DNA of 64,000 nt, taken from positions 1-64,000 of the forward strand of contig NOWV01000179.1 in the NCBI GenBank assembly GCA_003344405.1, written 5' to 3'. The stretch is from Trichoplax sp. H2. Its lineage: Eukaryota. Position numbers and translations under genes: made by a program. Below are positions 3,333 to 53,399 of the stretch, piece after piece (the first letter of the stretch is position 1; every line of letters starts with the position of its first letter). Under the pieces are notes generated by a model, which saw only the letters and a list, made by a program, of their open reading frames with translations, had not been told where the DNA came from and did not search any database.

Positions 3333-5089
3333 CAAATTATGATTAGTCCGTCAACCTACTCAGGTCGTTAAAACTATTACCAAAATTTAAATATATAAGA
3401 CTCATGATTACAGTCACTTTCGTCACCATTGTACGTAAGGCTATTAGTGGGACGAATTGTAAACAGATATTGTAAGGTGTTATTGTAAAATTTCCCTTTA
3501 TTAGTGATCTGAATAGCCAGTTAATTTTCTTATAATTATTAAACAACTTAGTTGATCCAACTTATACGTGAGATCATCTGATTTTTGGTCGCTTAAATTT
3601 ATGATTAAAATTCAAACATGGTATGAAATCTTTACTAATATCGTTATTAAAACATTGAGCATCTATTTGACTATTTGGCGTTTAGATTGAACGCTTCTAA
3701 CGGAATATTTATTATTGCTTTCTAGAAAAATAGTCTCTTAGTGAACTTTTCATAGTAGTCACCGAGTTGGCCTCAGCAAATTAGAAAAGAATTTTTTAGT
3801 ATAGCAATATCAAATTTGAAAACATTCTTTTTCACGAGTACGATACTCTAACCAATCTTATACAACTGTTACAGTTGGATGCGATAGAATTTTCAATTAA
3901 ATCAAACTTGAGTCGAAATACTATACGCTACTGTACGCGTAGCTACTACTTTTAACACCTGTCGCATTGGTGACAAAACACAGAATACAGTAAGTAAGGT
4001 CGTGGCAATGAACGGAAATAACGTTATCGGGTCTAATCTACTGTAAACTACTCAACCTAAGTTGAAGTTAAGTCAATCACGTTACCAATTAACTAATTAT
4101 TGATTATATACGAGTATAATTAGTGAATAATGAACACCTTAGAATAGTCTAGGTAAGGTGATATGCTATGTTAGATATTTATTTTGCGAGGCTCGTAGTT
4201 AATATTTTAGTAATAGAGTTGTGATATAAAGTATCAACTATTACGAGTTTATCAGCTAAAGATTGAAAGGCATACTAGATTTTAATATATAATCAAACCG
4301 TATATAGAAGGAGAATGAGGATTTCAAGACCTTAAGTTCCAGAATATCTACATATTCGTATCTATTTAGTAACTGTGCAGTATATATTAATTAATGCAAC
4401 TTGTAAAGTGTGTGTTGTATTAACTCCAGTCAACACCGGAATTCATGATAGAAATCAGTTTAAGCGTATGTGGTTGTAAAATAAAAGTAGTAATTGCTTA
4501 AGCTAAGAAGTGTTCAGGAGTTGTAACGTAAAGAAAAGTGTAGCAATTAATCNNNNNNNNNNNNNNNNNNNNCAAATTATGATTAGTCCGTCAACCTACT
4601 CAGGTCGTTAAAACTATTACCAAAATTTAAATATATAAGACTCATGATTACAGTCACTTTCGTCACCATTGTACGTAAGGCTATTAGTGGGACGAATTGT
4701 AAACAGATATTGTAAGGTGTTATTGTAAAATTTCTCTTTATTAGTGATCTGAATAGCCAGTTAATTTTCTTATAATTATTAAACAACTTAGTTGATCCAA
4801 CTTATACGTGAGATCATCTGATTTTTGGTCGCTTAAATTTATGATTAAAATTCAAACATGGTATGAAATCTTTACTAATATCGTTATTAAAACATTGAGC
4901 ATCTATTTGACTATTTGGCGTTTAGATTGAACGCTTCTAACGGAATATTTATTATTGCTTTCTAGAAAAATAGTCTCTTAGTGAACTTTTCATAGTAGTC
5001 ACCGAGTTGGCCTCAGCAAATTAGAAAAGAATTTTTTAGTATAGCAATATCAAATTTGAAACATTCTTTTTCACGAATACGATACTCTA
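3333..5089. repeat. Near-identical ~517 bp duplication (3333-3850 vs 4573-5089) flanking a 20-N gap (4553-4572); probably uncollapsed haplotypes
   Basis: The second copy starts exactly at the gap edge. By eye the copies differ by about two substitutions and one 1-nt indel. 3851-4552 follows only the first copy. Confidence 0.8.
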
Positions 5090-10954: not shown

Positions 10955-11575
10955 GAGTGCTGTGAAGATGTTGTCGGCCATAGAAGTTTTCTAATGCTGT
11001 ATCTCTATGGGAACTGGACAGTACTGGTACTGTGAAGAATCAAGATATTGTCGGCCATAGAAGTGCGCATACTCTGTATGGGAACTGGATAGTACTGGTA
11101 CTGGTACTGGTGCTACTGGTACTGTGAAGAATCAAGATATTGTCGGCCATAGAAGTGCGCATACTCTGTATGGGAACTGGATAGTACTGGTACTGGTACT
11201 GGTGCTACTGGTACTGTGAAGAATCAAGCAAGATATTGTCGGCCATAGAAGTGCGCATACTCAGTATGGGAATTGGACAGTACCAGTACTAGTACCAGTA
11301 CTAGTACCAGTACCAGTACCAGTACCAGTACAGTGCTGTGAAGAATCAAGATGTTGTCGGCCATAGAAGTTTTAATACTCTCTATGGGAACTGGACAGTG
11401 GACAGTACTAATACTAGTACCAGTACCAGTACCAGTACAGTAGAGTGCTGTGAAGAATCAAGATATTGTCGGCCATAGAAGTTTTCTAATACTCTCTTAT
11501 ATGGGAACTGGACAGTATGCAGTATCAGTATCAGTACCAGTATCAGTATCAGTATCAGTATCAGTACCAGTACAG
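10955..11575. repeat. Minisatellite, 6 units (period 77-118 bp): conserved core plus variable hexamer microsatellite spacer
   Basis: Core TTGTCGGCCATAGAAGT...TATGGGAACTGGA starts at 10971, 11048, 11140, 11236, 11354 and 11466. Spacers are (ACTGGT)n, then (ACCAGT)n, then (ATCAGT)n. Confidence 0.9.
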
Positions 11576-12379
11576 CACTTCCTTTTATAAAAACAGCAGA
11601 TAGTGTTGTACTGTACAATGTACTGTACTTACAGTACAATCGTACTGTACATTCGGTTTGATAGTGTTGCTGTTGCTGACTGTCCAATACTGTATCCATC
11701 CATTCTTGTCACTGTAACTTACAATAGAAAGTACTATAAGGTCGCTCATTATGTACTGTACAGTACTGTACTACACTGTGTACGTAGAGATACACAGTGT
11801 AGTACAGTACTGTATAAGAAAGTCTATGGCTTACAGTACAGTACTGTACAGTATGTACTGTACACCAAGGGTCTCCAGCCTAGTCTGTACAGTACAGTAC
11901 TGTACACTAATGTACTGTAGATAGAGATAATCCGGCAGCACTGGCACTCGATTGATATACTGTACTGTCAAGCAGTTCATAACGACGGTATCAACCCCCC
12001 CCCGCCTATTACGCTTTGGTCAGGAGCCAACGTGGCTTGCAGTAGCTAGTTGACAGTACTATAGGCTTTAAAGGCGGAAACACTGCAATGACGTAGCACT
12101 ACCACAGCTGATCAAAGCTGAAAATTAGAAACGAGGTTTTTGGACCATTGGTTTGATTATTTTGCGTGTGTTCGAGAATTGATGGTATTCAAACTATTTC
12201 AAAGTGCAATGCGTTTCGCAATCCTATGCGTAGAGTAGATGTGAATACACTGTACTGGAGCGATCACAGGCCACACCACTAATACAGTATACTGTACTTG
12301 TACAATATTGGATAATTTCATAAATAATCAAGTCATCCAAACCGGAAAAGCCATAACAGCATCTTGAAGCAGAAATAGG

Positions 12380-12526
12380 ATGAGAAATAGGTTATGCTTG
12401 TGCGTTTACGCCAGTGGAGCGATTGTGCTTGGAATGGGCATTCAGTATGATTGGAGATTTCTCTATAATCTACCGACATACAGTGGTGTTGCTGGGAGAT
12501 GGAAATACATGACAACTTTGAATTTC
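12380..12526 (+). CDS. AIG1: AIG1/ADTRP-family locus 1, variable first exon 1a (49 aa, includes catalytic Thr)
   Basis: MRNRLCLC...GVAGRWKYMTTLNF followed by GTAAGT at 12527, phase 0; matches the family YGGxWKFLT motif. Confidence 0.85.
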
Positions 12527-13195
12527 GTAAGTTTCAACAGCTCAAGTTTCCTACCGCTAGTGATAGATTCCAACTCATTCATTCATTCATTCATTAACCT
12601 CCTAGTGAAGCAGTACCGCACTGCATTATTAATTCAATTCAATGGTCAATTAGGAGCAACCGCAAGTACAGTAGTAAGATTCATTCATGAATTATCACAA
12701 CTCTATTGCAAATGGAATAGAGCATTCTGAATATTTTGGCGGTGCTGTATAGTAGTATAGTTAGTATATTGTAAACGCTTACCAATTTCGATGGTAAGTT
12801 ATGAAATAAAAAAATGTATAATGACGTATCATTCATTCTCTTTTCATTTTCTACTAGTTAATTTTGAGATTTACAAGCGTTTACAATATGCTTACTCAAC
12901 CACATGATGATGACGTAAATTTCCTCTAAAAAAAAAATGGAAAGTGAAGTCAGGAACGGGGAGTAGCCTGTGTACAGTACAGTACTGTACACTGTACAGT
13001 GTACAGACTGTGCGACAGCTTCACCCGCTCTCCTCCCACCCCACCCCACCCCCCGGCGTACATAATATACTGTACTGTACAGTGGATACTGGGTAGTGTA
13101 CAGTATACACCAAACTCCACTGACTCAGTTCAGCATATTTAGCCTTATGACTTGTATCATAGCCGATCGATCTATAGAACAGGGAAGCAAGCACG

Positions 13196-13342
13196 ATGAG
13201 AAATAGTTTACTTTTATGCTTTTACGCCTTTATGGCAGTTGTGTTTGGAATTACGGCAAAGTATGATTGGGATAATCTCTGTGATATGCCGTCTCGCAGA
13301 GGATATGCTAAACGATGGAAGTATCTGACTGTATGGAATTTC
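13196..13342 (+). CDS. AIG1: AIG1/ADTRP-family locus 1, variable first exon 1b (49 aa, includes catalytic Thr)
   Basis: MRNSLLLC...GYAKRWKYLTVWNF followed by GTAAGT at 13343, phase 0. Confidence 0.85.
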
Positions 13343-14281
13343 GTAAGTACCCGCGATACTGTAGGCAACTCGACAGCGTGCCAATCCTCAATTTGCCATG
13401 TTGATATCCGTGACAGTTCATTCCTTTTTTTATACTTCTTCTTTCCGCTTCCGGTATGCGGCTATCCATAAACTATCAATAAATCCTTGATCCATAAAGC
13501 TCCAAAGTTTGCTTTGTTACCTTATGCTAACATTCCCAATTGATCCCGAATTGAAAAAAACTGAAATGATGACAAGATTATTGCTCATGGCTCGATTGCT
13601 TGATACTACCACTTGTTGATTTGAATTGCTCAAGTTACCATTAAAGTGTACAATGTTAATTGACTGTGATGCGTATACACTACTGCGCAAGACTACTTTG
13701 ACGTCATCAATCCTCTCGATCCCATTTAGCATGGGTCATTCTTTCTTTCTTTTTAGTACTCCCACTACATCGTGCCCAAACAATACTGTACTCTATAGGG
13801 CACAGTAAGCGAGTATGGTCTAGTTGAGGCTGCACTAAGCCAAAATCGGACATCTACCTTGAACCATACTGTCTTGGTTGTCCTCATATCGAGCCACGTG
13901 GTATCGCCGGCAAGAGGTCACCCACACTGACATGACCCCTGTGCCTTGACCCAAACTATCCATTTTTGCGGGACCTGCAAATATGGCAGTCTGAATGGTT
14001 GGCACGGTACTATTGTACCGTCGAGTCGAGTCTTTCTCCTATCCACAAATAACTCCTTTGATGCATTTATTATTGGAATAATTTTATTAGAATCATTACT
14101 GCAATCCTTTAACCCAAAGTATCTTGATATCAATTGAATTGATTGAGAATCACCGAAGCTTGTTGATAATCTTTGACCTCCGTACCGAACCTTCTTGGTG
14201 TTTTAGCCGGTATCGAGTTACTTCCAAGTAGATTAAGAATCATTTAGTGGACAGTGAAGCCTGATTGAATAATCGATTGTA

Positions 14282-14428
14282 ATGGAGAGAGTAGTTTGGT
14301 TTTTATTATATCTAGTCTTTGCAAGTGTATACGCTTATTCGTCGTATTCTTCTCGTGCATTTATGGCGGATCTGCCTATCGCTAAAGGATATGGTGGCTT
14401 GTACAAATTTTTAACTTCATGGAATTTG
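14282..14428 (+). CDS. AIG1: AIG1/ADTRP-family locus 1, variable first exon 1c (49 aa, includes catalytic Thr)
   Basis: MERVVWFL...GYGGLYKFLTSWNL followed by GTAGGT at 14429, phase 0. Confidence 0.85.
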
Positions 14429-15378
14429 GTAGGTTGTGCATCAATGCAGTACAGGACAGTATAGCCTATCTTGGCAATAGATTATATAGTGGAAATGCGT
14501 TTGTAAATTACTCGACTGTACTGTATAAACAGTTCAAGAACCAACGTCATTATGCCTGCATGCCTGGGGTGCTAGTGCTACGTAGGCTCTATTACAATTT
14601 CATTGATGATGGATTGTTATTTTTACGGCCACATGCACTGATGGAAGACAACCAATCACCCCAACCAATACCATCAAGGAGTTGATTTGTATGGAGATAG
14701 ACTAATATTTTGATTGACACCAAATGATAGGAGATAAAGATTAGATTAGCATCGAGTTTAAAATGATCTTGATCTATTTTTGATACGTTGCTAAAAGCTA
14801 GAATGAGCTGCAATATCGAGTATAGGATATGCGGATATCAATTGACTTGGATTACAAATGACAATGCGTAGTCATCATTCATAACTGGATTGACGTACTA
14901 TTGCACTTTCTATTCACCTCTGTCAATTTTCCTGTAGTAGTATTTGCAATTACTGTATCTGATACTATGACAGTTGAAACCAAACAGGGTAAAAATCCGA
15001 TTATATCAAATTCACTGTCCAATATTAACATATGCGATTATGGACGATTATTATCCACGTTAGATGCATCGTTGTCTTACAAGTAAGGTACAGAATGATT
15101 CATTCGCTTGTAATTAATACCAACCTAAGGTAACGCACTCAGAGTTCGATAATACATTGAAATGGTACAGTAAATTTGAGATAGAAGATAATGGCTTGAT
15201 TGCATTCTGTCCTAATCAGGATCAAAGGACAACGTCAATTATTATTAAATCATGGCAACAAGTCATTAGGATAATAATAATAAAATGGCACCTTGCTAGA
15301 GGAGTATTTGCATTCTTGCAAACTTCTAACATTATAATTATTCCATTGTATGTCTAAGCATGTTCTTTTCTTCTTTAG

Positions 15379-16576
15379 CATTTACAGACACTGTATTACT
15401 ATTATGCCCTGCTGGCTACTATGTACGTGCTCATCAGTAAAGCTGAAAGAAGTATTTTATTAACAATAAGAGATTATATATTTGGTGCTCTGGTTTTTCC
15501 GATTGGCATGGTAATTTCTTTTAAATACAACCAATTGTAATGCTATATACATCGTAGTTCTTGCCAATAAATAAATAGCGTATAGATTTATTAAAGTACT
15601 AAAAATTGCCTTAGTACTTTATTTCATATACGTGTATACGAAGTAATTCATGATCTGTAGTTTCACAAGTCTGGACGTAATTGAAATGCTTATTTTCTGT
15701 TATATCTTGGATAGTACGTTGGAGTGATATTTTGGGCCATGTATAACTTCGACCGTGAAGTAATTTATCCTCGGTCATTGGATCAATATGTTCCAGTGGT
15801 GATCAATCATGTCTGGGTAAAATAATCGACACAAATACTGAGATTTTAATGTTACAGTTACAGTATTAATGTTCGATTATATCGTATGTGATATAGTGAC
15901 ATTCTTAACGCTACATACCTTTCAACCTGTGAGATTTCTTAGAAAATAAATGTATTCGACTTTGCTTAGTGTTTGGCGTTAGTATAGATTAGTAGTTTTA
16001 TTTTATTTTCGATACATGTGAGTAAAGTGTGATAGATCAATTGTGATACTTATTGAGTTTATTTGCTTACATATAGCATACTGCTGTGTTAGTATTCCCT
16101 ATAATTGAATCACTGCTTGTAAGACATGACAAGTTTCCAAGTCGTTCAAAAGGTTATGTAGGATTATTCATATTCAAGCTATTTTATTTGATATGGTGAG
16201 TATGCCTTTTGCTACTATTGTGCAACGTATAGATGTAGTTATAAATAGAACGTCTTATGTTGGATAGGGTTTTCTATATTGGATTATATCATAATCTATG
16301 GATATATCCGTTTATGCGAGTGATGAACAACACTCAATTTACAATATTTATACTGGTGTCAATTATTATCGATGCTGCTTGTTTCGAGGTTGGATACCGT
16401 CTAAATAGGGTAAAGAATCCTGGCAATGAAGGTAGGACTCGTTACTGCAGTACTAGTAAACATCAAGTGTCATGAGCGTCTTATAGTTATAAAGTTAAAA
16501 TTGTGTCCGTTAACAATATAATTTATCATCTTCATAAATAACAGGATCCACTGCAGAAAAGGTTAAGGGACAATAA
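15379..16576 (+). CDS. AIG1: AIG1/ADTRP-family locus 1, shared constant exons 2-6
   Basis: Exons 15379-15510 (HLQT...RDYIFGALVFPIGM), 15715-15816 (FWAMYNFDREVIYP...NHVW), 16077-16195 (HT...; first codon is the catalytic His), 16268-16431 (WIYPF) and 16545-16576 (ends KVKGQ*). All introns GT-AG and in frame; AATAAA at 16711. Confidence 0.92.
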
Positions 16577-17686
16577 CACCTTGCGATCAAGTACGATTTA
16601 GCATCCGGTATTGGCCGCAAGAATGATCCATTCTCACCCATTGAGCATATGACTATGTTAAATTATATGTAATTGATGATGACAGTGACTGTGTTAATAG
16701 ATAATTTTATAATAAAAGTTAACTAAATTTACTATAAAGGCAATGAACAAATTGTTTTATTACATGAATATTCTGAAAGTTTCAAACTTATTATCACCAT
16801 GTATTATTTAGATGCATTTTATCAAACTTACTATTGTCAGGTCCATTCTTGATTGAATTTTGTCAAATCGCCATTACATCCATTTGTTCAGTGTACGTAG
16901 AATAGCTAGGCTCTTGCTTATTTAGATTATTCCATCATGACAATTACGTCATGTGTCAAGAGTAGCTCAGTACATACAAAAACATTCAAGGCTATTTCTT
17001 AACCAACAACATAATTCGTATTTATTGGATACATTCTTGTAATAACCTTGATAGTGGAATAGGTCAATTTGTAATGCCAGCGCTTTCAATTCTACGATGG
17101 GATGATTGACATCATCAGCGAATCGTGTAATTATAGCATTTTAGACAGGTATATTTGTCATGGCTTTTTGATAAAGTTTCGCTATGCATAATATTCATGG
17201 GCTTGTAAACGTTTATCATGTACGCATAAATTAATAAAATCAGTAAAAATAAACCTAGGTGTACGCGAATTATGAACGTATATGAAAGCCACAATTTCCG
17301 TGCTTATTAGTGGGAAATATTTACTAGGAGTAATTTCATCCCTAATCATTGTCGGAATTCTGAATGTCTGTATGTCCGTATTAAGTTTCTACAATAGACA
17401 GCCATTAGAGTGACGATTGGACAGCTGTAGAGTGTTTGTAAGCTAGTGAGTAAAGGGTTAGAAAACGTAGCTCTACTTTTACATCTCCAACTTCTGCAAG
17501 TAGTACTAAGCATTTTATAAGTTGTTGTCGACTTTATTGAATAAATCGACACTCCAATTCTACATTATAGGCAAACTAATTTACTTATCATTTATTTGTA
17601 GGGAATAAGCAGTTGTTATAGCCTCAAATATTCGTCTTGTACGCACATTTATTCACCTATCTTACTACATAAATCAAATTGAAACG

Positions 17687-19765
17687 ATGGCAAACCCTAA
17701 CTCTCAATCGCCACTGTTATTTCATCTGATTTGTTTCACTCTATATTTTGGTGCTTTATTGTATGATATGCTATTTCTTCCTACCTTTGGACTCCGAAAG
17801 ATTTATGGGCACAGGTGGAAATTTTTAACAATTTGGTGTTTGGTAAGGTTACATTAAATTTTTGATGTATATAGGTACTTTTAAACTGTATCATAATAAC
17901 GTGTAACATTTCGACAGCATAAGAACGATTGAAGTTTGCTAGTGTGATATTATGGTTATAATGAAAATAATCTGCATCGCTCGCCATAACGGGTCGCTGC
18001 ATTATCGTACGTCGTATTTTTGGATGTATTTTTGACGATATGATATAATGAGTCGATGCAAGAGTCACGCTTTATCCTGGAAGAAGCTGATGATCTCCAT
18101 TAGTACCTCAATCAATTCAATCAAAAGCAGATTACTGTTCAGTATTTTTGTATATTGTTGCAAACATAGAATTACATGTTGTACATCAATTAAAATTTTA
18201 ATTGCATAAGCAGAATCTATTGTTACTTAAGAAACGCTTCAATATTCTCCACTACGATAAGTCGAATGTAAAATCTGTCATTTTTGGTAGCAGGGAAAGT
18301 AATTTTTTATCCTGCACTGCTTCTAAATTAGGTAGAATAATCCTGATTGCCGTTACTACGCTAAAATTGAGCACTTTATTGTTTCTAGTTGATCCAAATA
18401 CTGTATAACTTCATCGCTGTCCTGTCCGCTGTCACCCCAATATTGACGAACAGGGTGAAATCCTTGAAAGACTTTTTATTTGCTTCACTGGCATTCCCTT
18501 TCGGAATGGTAAGTGTGACTTATTTTAAGTCTTAATTTATAATTGCTTTTATCACATTTTGTGTAGCTATTTACGTAGACTACTAGATATGCTTTCGGTA
18601 GATACAATCTTTACGAGTATATGCATTAGCAAATCTTATCTGAAAATCAGAATATAAGAATAGCTACGATCATGATATTTGTATCTATAATCTCTCCTTT
18701 ATATCATCAAAGCTCGGATTATGTAGAAAGAGTTGTACGATTATCATTGCTACATGTTGTAGGATTACAGTATACAGACTCCAGAAATTTTAGCTGTTAC
18801 GTACGTTTCTCAAACAGTTATAAGATATTCTACGGTATGCATAGGAGCTGGTGATGGAATTATGATAAACACCATAAATAAAAATGAAATATAAAATATG
18901 TGTAGTCATCTACTTTAATCATCTACTAGCAGAAAATTGCAACTAAGAAGCTTTTAAATAATTACAATTCTAGCTCGTTTCGTCCATGTTTTGGATATTA
19001 TACTGCTTGGAACCAGACTTCGTTTATCCTTTGGCTGAGAGAAAAATTGTCCCTGTAGCGTTGAATCATATTTGGGTAAGAATAATTTGAGTATACTCTG
19101 TAATCATTCGTATATAAGATATACCTCTGATACTCGAAAAATATCCATACAATTTCACTAATGAATATTTTATATTTAATAGCATACCTTAGTATTTATT
19201 AGTCCTATGCTCGATGTACTACTTTATGAGCATAAATATCCTTCAAGGATCTATGGGCACTTTTGCTTAGCAACTTTTGCATTACTCTATATTGGATGGT
19301 GAGCAATTATCAAATGTGATATAGGTTTTTATAACCTCAATGCATTTTAAATGATGCCATTATTCAATAGTCTAAGGTTTTAACATCAGCTTTTATATTT
19401 TATATTTACAGCATCTTTTGGATAGCTCATGTTGCTAAAGTATGGATATACGGAGTATTAGAGACTATGTCTGCGCCAATGGTCGTTGTTTTTTGTTTAG
19501 TGCTCGTTTTAGTAACGATTCTATTATATGAATTTGGATACTGGCTGGAACGAAGGAAGAAACGGGTATTGGTAGTCTTTACGACATGTCATCAGTATTA
19601 ATAATACAATTAATGTAGATACCTATGGTTAAGTAGTTTTTCATAGCAAAATATAGCGAAAATTATTGGTCATTTTCGAGTAATTGAGCATCGTCATCAC
19701 TACAAATTATATGATCTTGAATAGTTTTATTTTTTATATGATTACAGACGCTAAAGTTAAATTAG
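17687..19765 (+). CDS. AIG1: AIG1/ADTRP-family hydrolase, paralog 2
   Basis: Exons 17687-17842 (YGHRWKFLTIWCL), 18389-18508 (KDFLFASLAFP), 18974-19075 (NHIW), 19183-19298 (HT...HKYPSR), 19412-~19571 (WIYGVL) and a tentative last exon 19748-19765. Intron positions match locus 1. Confidence 0.9.
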
Positions 19766-21388: not shown

Positions 21389-23256
21389 ACCGCCATTTTG
21401 GTTATTACACGTCATTGGCATATTAAGTATCTTACTTCTACACATTTGTTAATGGAAGTCCATTAACGATTGAATCTCACAATATTAATAGATCATAATA
21501 TTTATGATTATCTAATCGTAACCGTCTATTTCTTCTTCAATAACATTATCACATAATATCTTAAACCGTAACATATGTACAAAAGCAATTTGGATATGGC
21601 CAAGTTAGGACTTAATTGGATAACATAGCATACATGTGATCATATGCTTAGCTTATGAAAGTAATTTAGCTGATTTGGCTTTCTTTTTGTACGATAAATT
21701 AGACATACATAAGCATTCATTATTAATGATTAAAATAGTCCATATTCAAATACCACTATGTAGTGGAATAATGGTTACTGAACATTTTTACGTCAAAAGA
21801 CAAGATTAGACGATCAGAAATCTACTACATGTTAGAATATTAAGCTTATGTAGGTAATAAATCGCTGTATAATTAATTTAGAATAATAATTATAGCTCAA
21901 AGAATATATGCTCTTATATTTACAAAAATTCATTACAGTATTAGTTACCGCTTCCTACCTCCATGCTGTGATGAATGCCTAATAGAATCAACATACTATA
22001 GCACATAGTCGACGTTTTAATGCGCACAGCAATAAGCTAACTGTAGCACCCCAATTATAAACTAATTGCCTGGGTGCAAATTCATAGGTAGCACATTTTG
22101 TTCATTTTATCCCAAGTAATTGTAAACTGTCCAACAATTTGAGTATACGTATGCTATTGGTAAGGGTAATTTCTCATAACGTACAAGTAACAGTAAAATT
22201 AGTAAGGATACTCGCGTATAGTAGCTTACGGATAGACATCTATACCCGTATGGTATCACGAGATTCAAACAATATAATGATCCATGCGAAAATATGTGAG
22301 AAAATTATTGGGGCATGGAGAAGTCTATGATTGGATATCATGAATAAAATCACACCATAGCTGCTATAGCTTAAAAAAAGTGATCTATTACTTATTAATT
22401 AATAATCTAAAAGTATGCATTATAATTATTAAAGTTTGTAAGAATGTATTGTATATATGCCATACGCAGGAAAATAAAACTGTAAACATTACTAAATTAT
22501 ATTTACAAAACATGATTTGCTTTCAGTTAATGCTGACAATGTTAGAAAATTTATAAAGCTAACGATAGGTTAAAGCATATCTATTCTACCAAATATTTTT
22601 ATGGTAATAAAGTAGCTAGATTGATTCGTTGCTGTAAATACTAGATGTAAGTGGGGCTATCGACACTATGTAATTAAACTAAATTAATACTGTAGCCTCG
22701 AGTTCGTAGAGGCTATTATCGCGATGGACTATGGATCAAAGTACATGTTTACTGCACTAATAATATTTACTGTTGCATCATGTGTATGATTTAATGTTAT
22801 TATACTATTCATAAGGGCAAACTTTGAATAACACAGCTATTGAATGAAACGATAAGCAACATAGTAGGCTAATTAAATATTTAATAACCATGAGTAAAAA
22901 CAGATAGCTTAATCATCAATAATAATAGTTAACCTTTCTCGGTCAAATGAGGATTGTAGGGTGTGATGCTTGCATATTATATTTTATTATACAGTTAAAG
23001 GCGGTTAATTATAATATATGCATACGTTTGTATTATTTACAGGCTGCAGAGTAGCGAATATCTATTTATTATTGGTAATAACTTTGATACGAAACCTTAA
23101 ATACTATTAAATATCTTACCTATGGTACAAAAATAATATCTATTGGCGGTATTACCAAAGTATATACTGTTGAAGATCTTTTCTATCGTCTAGGACGACG
23201 AACGAAACATTTTTTCCTTAATCGATAATCAATATTAGGAGGCTACTAAACCAGAA

Positions 23257-24978
23257 ATGAGTCTATTATCATTATCCTTCCACTCAACTTTATTGTTCCT
23301 GTATACTTATGCAACATGGTACGATCTCAACTTTATACCCCTATTAGGAGTTAAGAAAATGTATGCAGGCAGATGGAAATACTTGACTCAATGGTGCATG
23401 GTAATAAAGTTAGCTTCTCTTTATAAACTAAGTAAATGGACGCAATCCATTCGATTACATGCGTAGTAATTTGATTTAAACTGATCAGAGAAGGATGATC
23501 TACCTTAACAATAATTCTTTAAATATGATGACGTTTCGGCATTAAAATATAATTTTTTAATATCGATTTAAGATCTAACTTGGATAAAAGTGCAACTTGT
23601 TTAGGCTGTAGCTTATTTGGTCTAAAACTTCTTGATTATCATATTGTAGGTCATACAACTAAACTATCAAGCTCTCTGCGTTATAAGTTATCTCTATTCG
23701 AACAGCAAGAATATCACTAAATTCAAGAAAATAAGAGAGTATGTATTTTCCGTTCTGGCTTTCCCTGTCAGCATTGTAAGTCAATGACATTTTATTACTA
23801 CTTGAGAGCTGAAAGAATAAGGTTTTACTACTATCTTAATTGATTGTCAATTTACTACAATGACCTAACTGGGTAGTTAGCATACTAGGCAACAGCATAA
23901 GCTAGGGTATTCAAGCAGTAGCACATTATAACTTAAAAGTAGTGGTTAAGAGTCCAAGTGTTGATAGCTTCGTACCAATAGATCTGCTTTTATATGATAC
24001 TTAAAAAAATAGTTTTAAGGCTCCATCAAATCAGAAGGTGAAAAGTTATTAACTTCGATACTTTAGATTTAGTTATGATCAACCTATCTGTATCCATTTC
24101 AGTATAATATAAAAGTACCTTGAGCTTAATACTTTAACTTAATTTTTTCAACGCTATTTTTAACACAGATCATATTATAGCTCTACAAACATACATCTAC
24201 ACGTATATATTATAATCGATTGATTGTAGAGGTAAATATATGACAGTACTGAACTATTATTGTACTCGAATATGTAGCTATTGCATTCTCTTATAGAGTA
24301 TTTTAAAGCTGCTGATAATTCATATTAGCAAATTATATGTTAAAAATTTAATTTGCTCTGTGACTTATTTTGTAGATAGTGACTGCTACCTTTTGGATTT
24401 TATATATAAAAAACCCGAATAACGTCCGAGAAAAAATGTACGAAAATATTATACCACCTCACATTAATCATTTATTTGTAAGTATGAATGATTATAGTAG
24501 ATAAAATTATTTTATTTTCTGTTACCCTTGCATTAATTACGCATAATATTTCATAATTGTTAGCATACCGTCATCGCTATTGCCAATATTCTCGATTTAT
24601 CAATGCACCACCACGATTATCCTGTAAGAAGAAACAGCTATGTTGGGATGGCTTTGTTTTCGCTATCATTTATAACCTGGTTAGTGCTGAAGACTTTAGT
24701 CGTAATAATATATATATCTATACGAGTATGATATCTACTTGGTGTCATCTACAAATCGCAATACAATATATACATCTACCATCTATTTCTGTAGGACAAT
24801 ATGGATCAAATATAGAGCTAATATTTGGGCCTATAAAATATTGCATAAGATCCCGACACCAATTTTACCAGCTTTCTTTATGAGCTTTCTTTTTATGCAT
24901 TTCGGGCTCTACGAATTTGAATTATGGGTAAAATCAAAGCAGACAGCAACTAATAAGCTGAAAAATAAAATGAACTAG
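23257..24978 (+). CDS. AIG1: AIG1/ADTRP-family hydrolase, paralog 3
   Basis: Exons 23257-23400 (YAGRWKYLTQWCM), 23650-23775 (REYVFSVLAFP), 24376-24477 (NHLF), 24564-24679 (HT...HDYP) and 24795-24978 (WAYKIL...KNKMN*). All GT-AG and in frame. Confidence 0.9.
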
Positions 24979-41930: not shown

Positions 41931-42793
41931 TGTCACAAAACAGCTTTGCAACAAGATAACGCAATATACGATCAATAAGTCAATTCCTTGAACCACGTAT
42001 CAAGGAACGATATCTGCACTATCAGAAACACTTTNNNNNNNNNNNNNNNNNNNNAGAATTGCTAAATTAAATTATATTGGCTAACAAAATGAAAGATTAG
42101 AAACAATTTTTAACTTAATTAATATGTGAGATTATTGTATACCAGCTATATTCTATGCTACTTAAGCAATCTATTAGGTGTGATTCAAAGTATCTGTAGT
42201 GACTTTCTCTTAAGATCGGTACTCTCTACCTTCGATAATCTAATCATTTTCTACCATACTGGAATTGATATTACATTATGAGTCTCTCGGTTATAGAGAA
42301 TGCGAACAATCTGAAGTAGAAAGTCGATTATCTCAATTTTTGATCAATCATAATTTATTATTAATGATCTATTGATTACAAGGCCAATTTCTGGGAAGAC
42401 AGGAAATTTTTAGATAATCGGTCTAAATTTTAATGATNNNNNNNNNNNNNNNNNNNNCTTAATGCAGACAACAGTATTTACGAACATAGACATATAATGA
42501 CTAATACAGAATAGTCAGATTACGATATGTCCTATCACGGAACATTTCCATGATAATTTACAGTCTACTATAAGTAAATTACAATCACAATGATTCGAAC
42601 TGTAAGCAGATGATTTGCATTCTCTATTATAACTATTAATTTCAGTATGTGTATAAGTGTCACTGTCATAAAAAGTCAGTGCTATATTAAAATACAGTAT
42701 ATCCAAATTAGAGGTTAACTAAATAAGGATAGTCTAATAGAATTATCCTAACATTGATATTTCTACTGTAATACAGTATATAACACTGTAACA
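41931..42793. mobile_element. LTR-like insertion present in one haplotype; the mini-contig 42055-42437 between two N gaps is the empty site
   Basis: 42055-42274 repeats 41711-41930 and 42275-42437 repeats 42800-42962. The extra sequence starts TGTCACA (41931) and ends TGTAACA (42793). Its start resembles the LTR end at 20973 (TGTCACAA...TTTGCAACAA). Confidence 0.55.
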
Positions 42794-51648: not shown

Positions 51649-53399
51649 AGTTATTTTTGGGGTAGCCGGTAAAAGTTTGACTGTTTTCAATACACGCAAG
51701 AATGATGTCTAAATTCCTTAAAAGTAGGTAAGTTGCCAATGTGGTGCAGAGATTGCCACGAAAGCTGTCGATGTAAATGGTAGAATACGCATAGTGAGCG
51801 ATTGTACTTAATAGTAAGTAGTCAAGATGACAAGATATGAGAAATTAGGTAGTGATAGAATGGCAGTGGACTACCGTAAAACTATACATATCTATACATC
51901 TAAAATAATAACATCCAACTTTTAGCTTGATTGCTACGTTCCGCGATCGTATGAATGTATCTTAACAATCAAGCCATTTAAAAAGTAGAACATTGCTGGG
52001 ATCTTCTGTATCATTATACCGTATATTATAATGATAAGCGTACAGTATACATCAATAATAAAGAAACCGGATTAAGAAGACTAATGTAAGCGTAGCGAGT
52101 AGGCCACCAACTAGTAATATACACATATAATTTAGCATTCATAAGCAGAACAGGTCAGATCAATACAGCCAATTAAATAGGCATGGTATAGTATCGTATA
52201 CGCGTATGTATCATTCTAGGCGTTCATTTCAGTTCAAAAAGTATAGAATCATCCACATTGGCTTCCAAGCGAGCGGGCTGTAGGCTAGTCCTGATGAAGT
52301 GATTAAAACTTACAGTAGATTAAGTAATACTCAATCTATTTCGATTGTAATCAACTGTAAACTGTTAATTAATCCATTATAATTATCAACAACAGTACAA
52401 GTACATCCGAATCAATAGTCATCTAGCATTGTAGTCATTGACAGTAATGTCGCAAGGAAGTTGGAAAATTACACAAAGTACTCCGCTGTCATGATTGCTT
52501 CCAACCTGCAAAGAGGCTGCAAGATTGCAGTTGAAACTGGTGAGTAAAACGAATCAATCAATAAGCAAGTCTTGAATTAGTCTGCTACGCGTCCCATTTC
52601 ACAAGTTCTATTACAGCAATGTTGTAAAACCTGCAAGACAAGATGGCCGTCTAGGGAAGCTTTAGCCGTCGCTTTCTGCGATCAATATACACTACAGTAC
52701 TGTACTGTATGACAGCACTGCCACTACAGTACAGTATAAACTAGTATAAACTGTTGTGTAATCCGGCCAAGTTCTGTCTGATTCTTGGATATTTTACGGC
52801 CACTTTCCATATGTTCTGTTAATAGAGTACACCTGTTGATGGTTTACTTCGAACCATCACGTACAACTTTCCATCAAAAATATTCACTATTTTTCATTAT
52901 AATCTTCTAATTTGATCGAAATACGCAATTACTATCCTCCATTTCATCAAAGCATCGCGCATATTTTGGCCATTAACTTCCACCATTCGATGCTTTCCGT
53001 ACAGTGTACAGTGTACAGTACATTGTATAGTACTGTACTGTACGTTCTGAGCACCGATCAGAGAGTGTACAGACAGCCAGAAGGATTAAGCAACATTTCA
53101 ATTTCCCTTGATGAAAGAAGTTGCACAGAGCTGAACTTGGAAACTCAGAGAAGGATTTTGAATCTTTGGTTCATATGCTTTTCTATATTGGCCATTTCCC
53201 AAGGAAAGACCGAAAATAGACCTATACTAGAGGTCTTATAGGGTAAGGAATAGATTTTTTCACTCTGTTATCAAGAAAAAATACCTAGTTTACATAACGT
53301 CAGCGACACTTGAGTAAGACAACATGGCACGTATCATATTTATACAGTACTATTTGGAGGTGTTGCATCCTGATAGCTATAATTTCTAGTATGACTGCT

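What the first reader, a model, noticed from the sequence alone, without database searches (positions are those of the whole stretch)
12380..16576. Variable/constant AIG1-family hydrolase locus: three swappable catalytic-Thr first exons on one shared His-bearing constant region
Seen: three exons (12380-12526, 13196-13342, 14282-14428), each exactly 147 nt/49 codons from its own ATG to a phase-0 donor (GTAAGT, GTAAGT, GTAGGT), with no stops or indels. Hand alignment gives 25/49 identity for 1a/1b, 12/49 for 1a/1c and 13/49 for 1b/1c. M1, Y10, A14, V16, P32, G36, K42, T45 and N48 are invariant. I found no exon-2-like sequence between them; only one set of exons 2-6 follows (15379-16576). Established: mammalian AIG1/ADTRP hydrolyse FAHFA lipids using a Thr in WKFLT (AIG1 T43) and a His in NHxxH (H134); UGT1A and clustered protocadherins diversify through tandem variable first exons spliced to constant exons. 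Inference: one locus makes three enzymes whose active site is split across the junction, with TM1, the loop and the nucleophile variable and the His constant, potentially tuning substrate or cell-type expression. Deep divergence with intact length, donor and catalytic residue argues against dead duplicates. I know of no such arrangement described for this family.
Basis: partly seen in the sequence, partly recalled or inferred. Interest (0 to 1): 0.92.

Follow-up and report, generated by a model that had tools for sequence, protein, structure and literature searches.

The report
Placozoan AIG1 gene, three first exons
A Trichoplax gene for an AIG1-type membrane lipid hydrolase has three interchangeable first exons, each carrying the catalytic threonine, joined to one shared body; similar isoform sets are annotated in amphioxus and the bed bug, so it is a neat but not unique arrangement.

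Summary
The window is Trichoplax sp. H2. The deposited 231-aa protein uses exon 1c only and is a clear Far-17a/AIG1 member.

A family HMM finds no hidden constant exons between the first exons. Contigs from other runs tile the interval collinearly.

Contigs with GT..AG joints show 1b>exon 2 (X13, X18) and 1c>exon 2 (X4, X18). For 1a, one X18 contig stops exactly at the donor with 23 unplaced letters, but no 1a joint was listed. Exon 1a is the weakest: it has the lowest HMM score, and one run carries a W25 stop allele.

The layout is not unique. Deposited isoforms of Branchiostoma lanceolatum (at least four) and Cimex lectularius (three) swap paralogous Thr-bearing N-terminal segments on an identical body, at the same boundary four residues after the Thr. 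My searches found no paper describing this.

Verdict: a real alternative-first-exon gene, a new member of a known kind, of moderate interest.

The parts
12380..12526 (+). Alternative first coding exon 1a (49 codons, donor GTAAGT). It encodes TM1, the loop and WKYMT with the Thr. It is the weakest of the three.
   Evidence: Translation. HMM 16.6 bits, E 6e-4. X18 contig lies on 12269-12526 and ends at the donor with 23 unplaced letters; no joint was listed. X4 carries 12453 G>A, which turns W25 into a stop.
13196..13342 (+). Alternative first coding exon 1b (49 codons, donor GTAAGT), WKYLT.
   Evidence: Translation. HMM 31.0 bits. Joint 13342>15379, GT..AG, in X13 (1 contig, side 30) and X18 (2 contigs, side 22).
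14282..14428 (+). Alternative first coding exon 1c (49 codons, donor GTAGGT), YKFLT. This is the exon used in the deposited protein.
   Evidence: Translation. P0004 begins with it. Joint 14428>15379 in X4 (side 29) and X18 (side 21). X18 contig 14076-14356 is collinear upstream of the ATG.
15379..15510 (+). Shared exon 2 (phase 0/0), the rest of TM2.
   Evidence: Pfam piece. Joint 15510>15715 in X4, X13 and X18.
15715..15816 (+). Shared exon 3, ending in ..INHVW (N124, H125).
16077..16195 (+). Shared exon 4. Its first codon is H128 of the NHxxH motif.
16268..16431 (+). Shared exon 5.
16545..16576 (+). Shared exon 6 with stop TAA. RNA contigs run on to at least 17132-17200 (3' UTR or read-on).

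Best explanation
One Trichoplax sp. H2 gene of the Far-17a/AIG1 family carries three tandem, paralogous first coding exons (1a, 1b, 1c). Each has its own ATG and a phase-0 donor. Each is spliced, one at a time, to the same acceptor at 15379 and the shared exons 2-6, giving 231-aa isoforms.

The variable exon encodes TM1, the first loop and the first turn of TM2 with the family's catalytic Thr (T45). The conserved His residues (H125, H128) and the other helices are common to all isoforms.

Shown here: the exon anatomy, family membership, and the 1b>2 and 1c>2 splices.

Inferred: that 1a is spliced to 15379, that each exon has its own promoter, that the proteins are lipid-ester hydrolases like mammalian AIG1/ADTRP, and that swapping the first exon changes substrate access, localisation or expression rather than the chemistry.

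The exons most likely arose by local duplication of exon 1. Exons 1a and 1b are the younger pair.
For: Anatomy and identities.

P0004 (deposited protein, Trichoplax sp. H2) equals 1c plus the shared exons.

Pfam PF04750 scores 139.8 bits against a cut-off of 24.5.

Conservation among 120 representatives: the T45 column is Thr in 106, H125 is His in 112, and H128 is His in 119.

The HMM scan finds three exon-1 hits and one set of later exons, with nothing between them.

Contigs:
- GT..AG joints 13342>15379 in X13 and X18, and 14428>15379 in X4 and X18.
- All four constant joints in X4, X13 and X18.
- X18 covers the three first exons and exons 2-6 but has zero depth in the intron bins.
- X18 contigs are collinear with the genome for 111 nt upstream of the 1a ATG and 206 nt upstream of the 1c ATG.
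- Unspliced contigs of X4, X13 and X19 tile 12122-15570 collinearly.

In-frame stops lie just upstream of each ATG.

dN/dS for 1a/1b is 0.52. Neutral drift would keep the ATG and open frame with P of 0.10 (25 changes) or 0.015 (51 changes).

The AlphaFold2 model has pLDDT 94.5, with helix 2-28 and a helix from residue 44 running across the exon 1/2 border.

Deposited amphioxus and bed-bug isoforms show the same kind of N-terminal swap.
Against: The joint 12526>15379 was not among those listed (5 joints were not shown). Use of 1a therefore rests on one 281-letter X18 contig that stops at the donor.

The X4 contig carries a nonsense change in 1a (12453 G>A, W25 to stop, depth 22.3). X18 has T33I in 1a, and X4 and X13 have M31I in 1b. 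Of the 16 X4 differences I tabulated over 12122-14933, 2 fall in exons 1a/1b, so at this shallow divergence the exons are not visibly protected.

Exon 1a scores only 16.6 bits against the family profile, versus 28-40 bits for the other four exon-1 pieces in the window.

No deposited protein with 1a or 1b was found (the tool calls this weak evidence).

All the runs were contigs, which cannot show transcript starts or amounts. X18 is RNA only by a guess plus its spliced, exon-only pattern. X4 and X13 also hold unspliced or genomic sequence.

No other placozoan species could be compared.
Confidence: 0.8

Rival explanations
1. Only two first exons (1b, 1c) are productive. Exon 1a is a decaying or dispensable copy that is transcribed but contributes little or no functional enzyme.
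For: No 1a>exon 2 joint was listed. X4 has a stop allele at W25, and X18 has T33I. Exon 1a has the lowest profile score, 16.6 bits. It has M at the position that is Leu in 102 of 120 family members, and L where 67 of 120 have Trp.
Against: In the window, X13 and X18 the frame is open, the ATG and donor are intact, and K42, T45 and N48 are kept. The X18 contig ends exactly at the donor and continues with 23 letters that are not the intron. X18 has no depth in the intron after 1a.
Confidence: 0.25
2. Exons 1a and 1b are dead relics of tandem gene duplicates whose later exons were deleted. Only 1c makes a protein.
For: The window holds a tandem cluster of paralogous genes. The deposited annotation uses only 1c. 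There is a weak tblastn match of exon 5 at 13066-13185 (E 0.003, composition statistics off).
Against: The 1b>exon 2 joint stands in contigs of two studies. The frames, ATGs and donors are intact despite 35% nucleotide divergence. The family HMM does not support the exon-5-like match, with nothing at E<5 there; that stretch overlaps a TACTGTAC-type repeat.
Confidence: 0.03
3. The three exons are internal, mutually exclusive exons fed by one shared upstream non-coding exon and a single promoter.
For: Contigs cannot show transcript starts. The 5' part of the 1b transcript is not covered in X18, whose contig begins at 13200.
Against: X18 contigs run collinearly from 12269 into 1a and from 14076 into 1c, crossing the proposed acceptor near 14207. 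No joint into the 5' side of any first exon was listed.
Confidence: 0.07
4. Misassembly: 1a and 1b each have their own downstream exons that the assembly collapsed.
For: The window has three N gaps and an exact 300-nt duplicate next to one of them, though all lie elsewhere in the window.
Against: Contigs of other runs cover 12122-13704, 13313-13956, 13813-14428, 14399-14933, 14819-15330 and 15301-15570 collinearly. There are no N in 12000-17000.
Confidence: 0.02

Closest known systems
Branchiostoma lanceolatum 'androgen-induced gene 1 protein-like' isoforms (XP_066269632.1 X1, XP_066269633.1 X2, XP_066269637.1 X6, CAH1247420.1)
   Same: At least four paralogous N-terminal segments are each joined to an identical remainder. 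Each segment has a hydrophobic helix, a loop and K[FY][LM]T. The boundary lies four residues after the Thr, as in Trichoplax.
   Different: A different phylum. The segments are 26-44% identical to each other and 18-27% to Trichoplax 1a-c, so the duplications could be lineage-specific, although peptides this short do not settle it. I saw only the proteins, not the genomic layout. Those isoforms are already annotated, whereas the Trichoplax 1a and 1b forms are not.
Cimex lectularius 'androgen-induced gene 1 protein-like' isoforms X5, X6, X7 (XP_014256062.1, XP_014256061.1, XP_024086251.1)
   Same: Three 254-aa isoforms differ only in the N-terminal segment up to KFLT.WD[AL], and the rest is identical.
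   Different: X5 and X7 are 75% identical over the N-terminal segment, which suggests a younger duplication. Further isoforms (X1, X2) carry an extra exon-1-like piece in series. I did not inspect the genomic layout.
UGT1A and clustered protocadherin loci (variable first exons, shared constant exons). This comparison is from established knowledge, recalled, and was not tested here.
   Same: Tandem paralogous first exons, each spliced to the first shared exon, so that one locus gives a family of proteins with a common C-terminal part.
   Different: Only three variable exons of 147 nt, against 9-13 or dozens of large exons. The variable part is one helix, a loop and the nucleophile, not a whole domain. 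One promoter per exon is not shown here.
Mammalian AIG1 / ADTRP (FAHFA hydrolases)
   Same: The same Pfam family. The Thr and His needed for hydrolase activity (T43/H134 in AIG1, T47/H131 in ADTRP; passages of PMC8123165) have conserved counterparts here.
   Different: About 29% identity to the shark AIG1 representative P0015; the best relatives of any kind reach 42%. In the vertebrate clusters I inspected (sharks, lampreys), isoforms differ at the C-terminus or by N-terminal extension, not by paralogous first exons. The activity of the placozoan protein is untested.

Membership tests
Far-17a/AIG1 (Pfam PF04750) | Profile match above the curated cut-off over the whole domain | tested here: met
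   P0004 scores 139.8 bits against 24.5, covering profile positions 3-205 of 206. Exons 2-5 match singly. With my own family HMM, the three first exons map to positions 8/11-60/61.
Far-17a/AIG1 (Pfam PF04750) | Conserved Thr (AIG1 T43 / ADTRP T47 equivalent) | tested here: met
   T45 is present in 1a, 1b and 1c. That column is Thr in 106 of 120 representatives. The residue numbers come from passages of PMC8123165.
Far-17a/AIG1 (Pfam PF04750) | Conserved His of NHxxH (AIG1 H134 / ADTRP H131 equivalent) | tested here: met
   N124-H125-V-W-H128 spans the exon 3/4 border. H125 is His in 112 of 120 and H128 in 119 of 120. I did not test which of the two corresponds to H134.
Far-17a/AIG1 (Pfam PF04750) | Polytopic helical membrane fold (six predicted TM helices in ADTRP, per PMC8123165) | tested here: inconclusive
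   The AF2 model has pLDDT 94.5 and six long helices at 2-28, 44-69, 75-110, 121-141, 150-175 and 188-216. No solved relative exists to compare it with (0 hits). Membrane insertion was not computed.
Far-17a/AIG1 (Pfam PF04750) | FAHFA (lipid ester) hydrolase activity | not testable with these tools
   This needs an enzyme assay.
Variable-first-exon / constant-exon gene (UGT1A, clustered Pcdh type) | Two or more tandem paralogous first exons, each with its own start codon and 5' splice site | tested here: met
Variable-first-exon / constant-exon gene (UGT1A, clustered Pcdh type) | A single shared set of downstream exons | tested here: met
   The HMM scan finds nothing with E<5 between 12532 and 15382. 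Independent contigs are collinear across the interval.
Variable-first-exon / constant-exon gene (UGT1A, clustered Pcdh type) | Each variable exon spliced directly to the first constant exon in RNA | tested here: inconclusive
   Met for 1b (X13, X18) and 1c (X4, X18). For 1a there is only a contig ending at the donor, and no joint was listed.
Variable-first-exon / constant-exon gene (UGT1A, clustered Pcdh type) | A promoter of its own in front of each variable exon | tested here: inconclusive
   X18 contigs are collinear 111 nt (1a) and 206 nt (1c) upstream of the ATGs, and the intron bins are empty. Contigs cannot show starts.

The most novel reading that the evidence does not exclude
In the AIG1/ADTRP hydrolase family, the ancient phase-0 intron four codons after the nucleophile Thr has been used repeatedly as a pivot. 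Placozoa, a cephalochordate and an insect each show arrays of swappable 'TM1 + loop + Thr' first exons on a common His-bearing body. On this reading it is a family-wide way of diversifying the lipid entry side of the active site, so one locus makes isozymes with different substrate range or cell-type expression, and the Trichoplax locus is its earliest-branching example.
Probability: 0.3. Interest if true: 0.65.

Novelty: new member of a known kind. Interest (0 to 1): 0.5.

Why it matters
It adds two unannotated isoforms to a placozoan gene. It also shows that a membrane hydrolase can exchange the part of its active site that carries the nucleophile while keeping the rest.

Natural chimeras of this kind, three in Trichoplax, at least four in amphioxus and three in the bed bug, are ready-made material for asking what sets substrate choice in AIG1/ADTRP enzymes, for which no structure is solved.

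It does not open a new category. Variable-first-exon genes are textbook, and the same kind of isoform set already stands in public annotation for two other animals.

Tried and rejected
- No whole genome is held for this window, so other placozoan loci and genome-wide copies could not be searched.
- Protein word-index searches returned only P0004 itself: exon 5 with 'longer', an alignment of five exon-1 peptides with 'longer', and P0004 with 'near'. They did not even return the window's paralogous genes B and C, so they say little about whether 1a or 1b forms exist in databases.
- There is no solved structure by sequence.
- Earlier findings of the scan returned nothing.
- A tblastn match of exon 5 at 13066-13185 (35% over 40 residues, E 0.003) looked like a relic constant exon between 1a and 1b. 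The family HMM does not support it, and it overlaps a TACTGTAC-type repeat, so I dropped it.
- X19 covered only repeats and 14819-15570 unspliced, so it says nothing on splicing.
- Parts without cover in single runs, and the different first exon joined to the exon-2 contig in X4 (1c) and X13 (1b), cannot be read as absence or as differential use, because contigs drop rare forms.
- Of 27 other 90%-identity clusters looked up, I aligned or read the isoforms of eight species groups. Only Cimex and Branchiostoma showed paralogous N-terminal swaps. Isoforms that fall in other clusters would have been missed, so this is a lower bound.
- The fold was not compared with structure libraries.
- Supplements of the papers were not seen.
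Full report
**What is there**

The stretch 12380-16576 lies in an AT-rich (32% G+C) intron-bearing genome.

Translating the three claimed exons gives 49 residues each, from ATG, with no stop. The donors are GTAAGT, GTAAGT and GTAGGT.

In-frame stop codons lie 4-7 codons upstream of each ATG, so these are first coding exons, not continuations of an upstream frame.

Downstream I read five further exons with GT..AG borders:

| Exon | Coordinates |
|---|---|
| e2 | 15379-15510 |
| e3 | 15715-15816 |
| e4 | 16077-16195 |
| e5 | 16268-16431 |
| e6 | 16545-16576 (stop TAA) |

**Identity**

A search with exon 5 returned one protein, P0004, 231 aa, named by its source 'Androgen-induced gene 1 protein [Trichoplax sp. 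H2]'. Its sequence is exon 1c plus exons 2-6, letter for letter. So the window is placozoan, and the deposited model uses 1c only.

P0004 matches Pfam PF04750 (Far-17a/AIG1) at 139.8 bits against a cut-off of 24.5. It has no solved relative by sequence.

An exhaustive representative search found 946 relatives at E<=1e-3. None is closer than 42% identity.

In an alignment of 120 of these, conservation at the key positions is as follows:

| Residue in P0004 | Conserved in |
|---|---|
| T45 (Thr) | 106 of 120 |
| H125 (His) | 112 of 120 |
| H128 (His) | 119 of 120 |

A review states that hydrolase activity depends on T43/H134 in AIG1 and T47/H131 in ADTRP (passages of PMC8123165). I did not test which of the two His corresponds to H134.

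N124 and H125 end exon 3, and H128 is the first codon of exon 4.

**One set of constant exons**

I built a family HMM from 120 representatives and ran it on every stop-to-stop fragment of all six frames of the 64-kb window.

Exon-1-like hits (profile positions 8/11 to 60/61) occur at five places:

| Start | Bits | Belongs to |
|---|---|---|
| 12380 | 16.6 | exon 1a |
| 13187 | 31.0 | exon 1b |
| 14282 | 28.2 | exon 1c |
| 17687 | 32.4 | gene B |
| 23248 | 40.0 | gene C |

Exons 2-5 occur once each for the gene in question and once each for genes B (17687-19553) and C (23248-24948). Nothing with E<5 lies between 12532 and 15382.

A tblastn match of exon 5 at 13066-13185 is not supported by the profile and overlaps a repeat.

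**RNA and assembly evidence (contigs only, one call allowed)**

I laid four coded runs on 11500-17200.

GT..AG joints listed:

| Joint | Runs |
|---|---|
| 13342>15379 (1b>e2) | X13 (on record as RNA, 1 contig, side 30); X18 (2 contigs, side 22) |
| 14428>15379 (1c>e2) | X4 (on record as RNA, side 29); X18 (side 21) |
| All four constant joints | X4, X13, X18 |

X4 and X13 belong to one study and X18 to another.

X18 is RNA only by a guess. However, it has depth over the three first exons and exons 2-6, none in the intron bins, and one 1096-letter contig with all constant exons joined. It therefore behaves as a transcriptome.

For 1a, the evidence is one X18 contig of 281 letters. Its letters 1-258 lie on 12269-12526, so it ends exactly at the predicted donor, and 23 letters are unplaced. 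A 12526>15379 joint was not among those listed, and five joints were not shown. I therefore count 1a as transcribed and probably spliced, but not shown joined to exon 2.

An X18 contig lies collinearly on 14076-14356 and so crosses the acceptor proposed near 14207. With the contig starting at 12269, this favours separate 5' ends, but contigs cannot show starts.

Unspliced contigs of X4, X13 and X19 tile 12122-15570 in the same order as the window. This argues against a collapsed assembly.

**Constraint**

For constraint:
- 1a and 1b differ at 51 of 147 bases yet keep the ATG, frame, length and donor.
- Simulated neutral change keeps the ATG and open frame with P of 0.10 (25 changes on one copy) or 0.015 (51 changes).
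- dN/dS for 1a/1b is 0.52 over only 49 codons.

Against constraint:
- The X4 contig carries 12453 G>A, turning W25 of 1a into a stop (depth 22.3). X13 and X18 have G there.
- X18 has T33I in 1a. X4 and X13 have M31I in 1b. The one listed change in exon 2 is synonymous.
- Exon 1a also has the lowest profile score and unusual residues at two conserved positions.

So 1b and 1c look like working exons. 1a may be dispensable or decaying.

**How it probably works**

The AlphaFold2 model of P0004 (77-row alignment, pLDDT 94.5, pTM 0.90) has helix 2-28, two short helices in the loop, and a helix that starts at residue 44 and runs to 69. The variable exon therefore supplies TM1, the loop and the first turn of TM2 with T45. 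TM2 continues in the shared exon 2.

I infer that choice of first exon, probably by choice of promoter, gives isozymes with the same His-bearing core and a different nucleophile-side wall. Joined 1a and 1b isoforms were not folded.

**Comparison with what is known**

Looking up 27 other 90%-identity clusters of relatives turned up two parallels.

*Cimex lectularius.* Isoforms X5, X6 and X7 (254 aa each) differ only in the N-terminal segment up to KFLT.WD[AL] and are identical afterwards.

*Branchiostoma lanceolatum.* The isoforms carry at least four different paralogous N-terminal segments on an identical remainder.

In both, the boundary lies four residues after the Thr, as in Trichoplax. This fits one intron position being the pivot, but I did not see those genomes.

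First-exon peptides are more alike within a species than between the three species: Trichoplax 1a/1b 51%, Cimex X5/X7 75%, amphioxus 26-44%. Trichoplax 1c, however, is closer to a mite (43%) and a nemertean (38%) N-terminus than to 1a or 1b (24-27%). Peptides this short cannot settle whether the arrays arose once or several times.

In the six other species groups whose isoforms I read (Bemisia, mosquitoes, lampreys, Artemia, Schistocerca, sharks), isoforms differ at the C-terminus or by N-terminal extension.

**Literature searches**

| Terms | Result |
|---|---|
| AIG1 / ADTRP / 'alternative first exon' (at least 2 of 3) | 42 papers; of the 15 listed, one holds the exon phrase together with ADTRP |
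| Trichoplax + 'alternative first exons' | 0 papers |
| 'variable first exons' + AIG1 | 0 papers |
| 'androgen-induced gene 1' / 'first exon' / isoforms / amphioxus (at least 3 of 4) | 72 papers; none of the 10 listed holds 'androgen-induced gene 1' |

In the one paper, the passages I read show the exon phrase only in a reference title (PMC10410515). A phylogenetic study of the family says alternatively spliced sequences were removed (passages of PMC8394805).

So I found the arrangement in annotation but not in print, within the library searched. Supplements were not seen.

**Verdict**

The central interpretation is supported for two of the three exons and is likely for the third. Functional tuning is untested. 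The claim of uniqueness fails.

It is a new, unannotated member of a known kind of gene organisation, with a modest wider point: the same kind of exon-1 swap appears in this enzyme family in three phyla.

Noticed in passing
window 17687-19553 and 23248-24948 (+ strand): Two further complete AIG1/Far-17a-like genes (B and C) lie in tandem downstream. Each has one exon 1 and one set of exons 2-5 by the family HMM. Their exon-1 peptides are 46% identical to each other. The word-index protein searches did not return them.
   Followed up: partly
window 12453 (exon 1a), run X4: G>A in one contig of depth 22.3 changes W25 (TGG) to a stop. X13, from the same study, and X18 have G. This is a possible null allele of isoform 1a segregating among strains.
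   Followed up: partly
window 11000-11965, 12972-13105, 52040-53043: The octamer TACTGTAC occurs 42 times against 2.4 expected. It is clustered in satellite-like arrays (a 92-nt tandem unit at 11022-11295, and hexamer runs of GTACTG/CAGTAC) just upstream of exons 1a and 1b. These places have very high summed contig depth and many loose ends in the runs laid, so it is a dispersed repeat family.
   Followed up: partly
window 3333-3632 and 4573-4872; N runs at 4553-4572, 42035-42054, 42438-42457: An exact 300-nt direct duplicate begins immediately after an N gap, with spacing 1240. It is probably an assembly artefact at a scaffold join.
   Followed up: no
P0062 / P0154 (Cimex lectularius isoforms X2, X1): These isoforms carry two exon-1-like pieces in series (..TKFLSFWNL then ..LKFLTFWDA). 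Either an upstream exon-1 copy is spliced into an internal acceptor of the next one, or the model is wrong.
   Followed up: no
window 16577-17200: Contigs of X13 and X18 that join the constant exons run on for about 560-620 bases past the stop codon, towards gene B (ATG at 17687). This is either a long 3' UTR or read-on.
   Followed up: no
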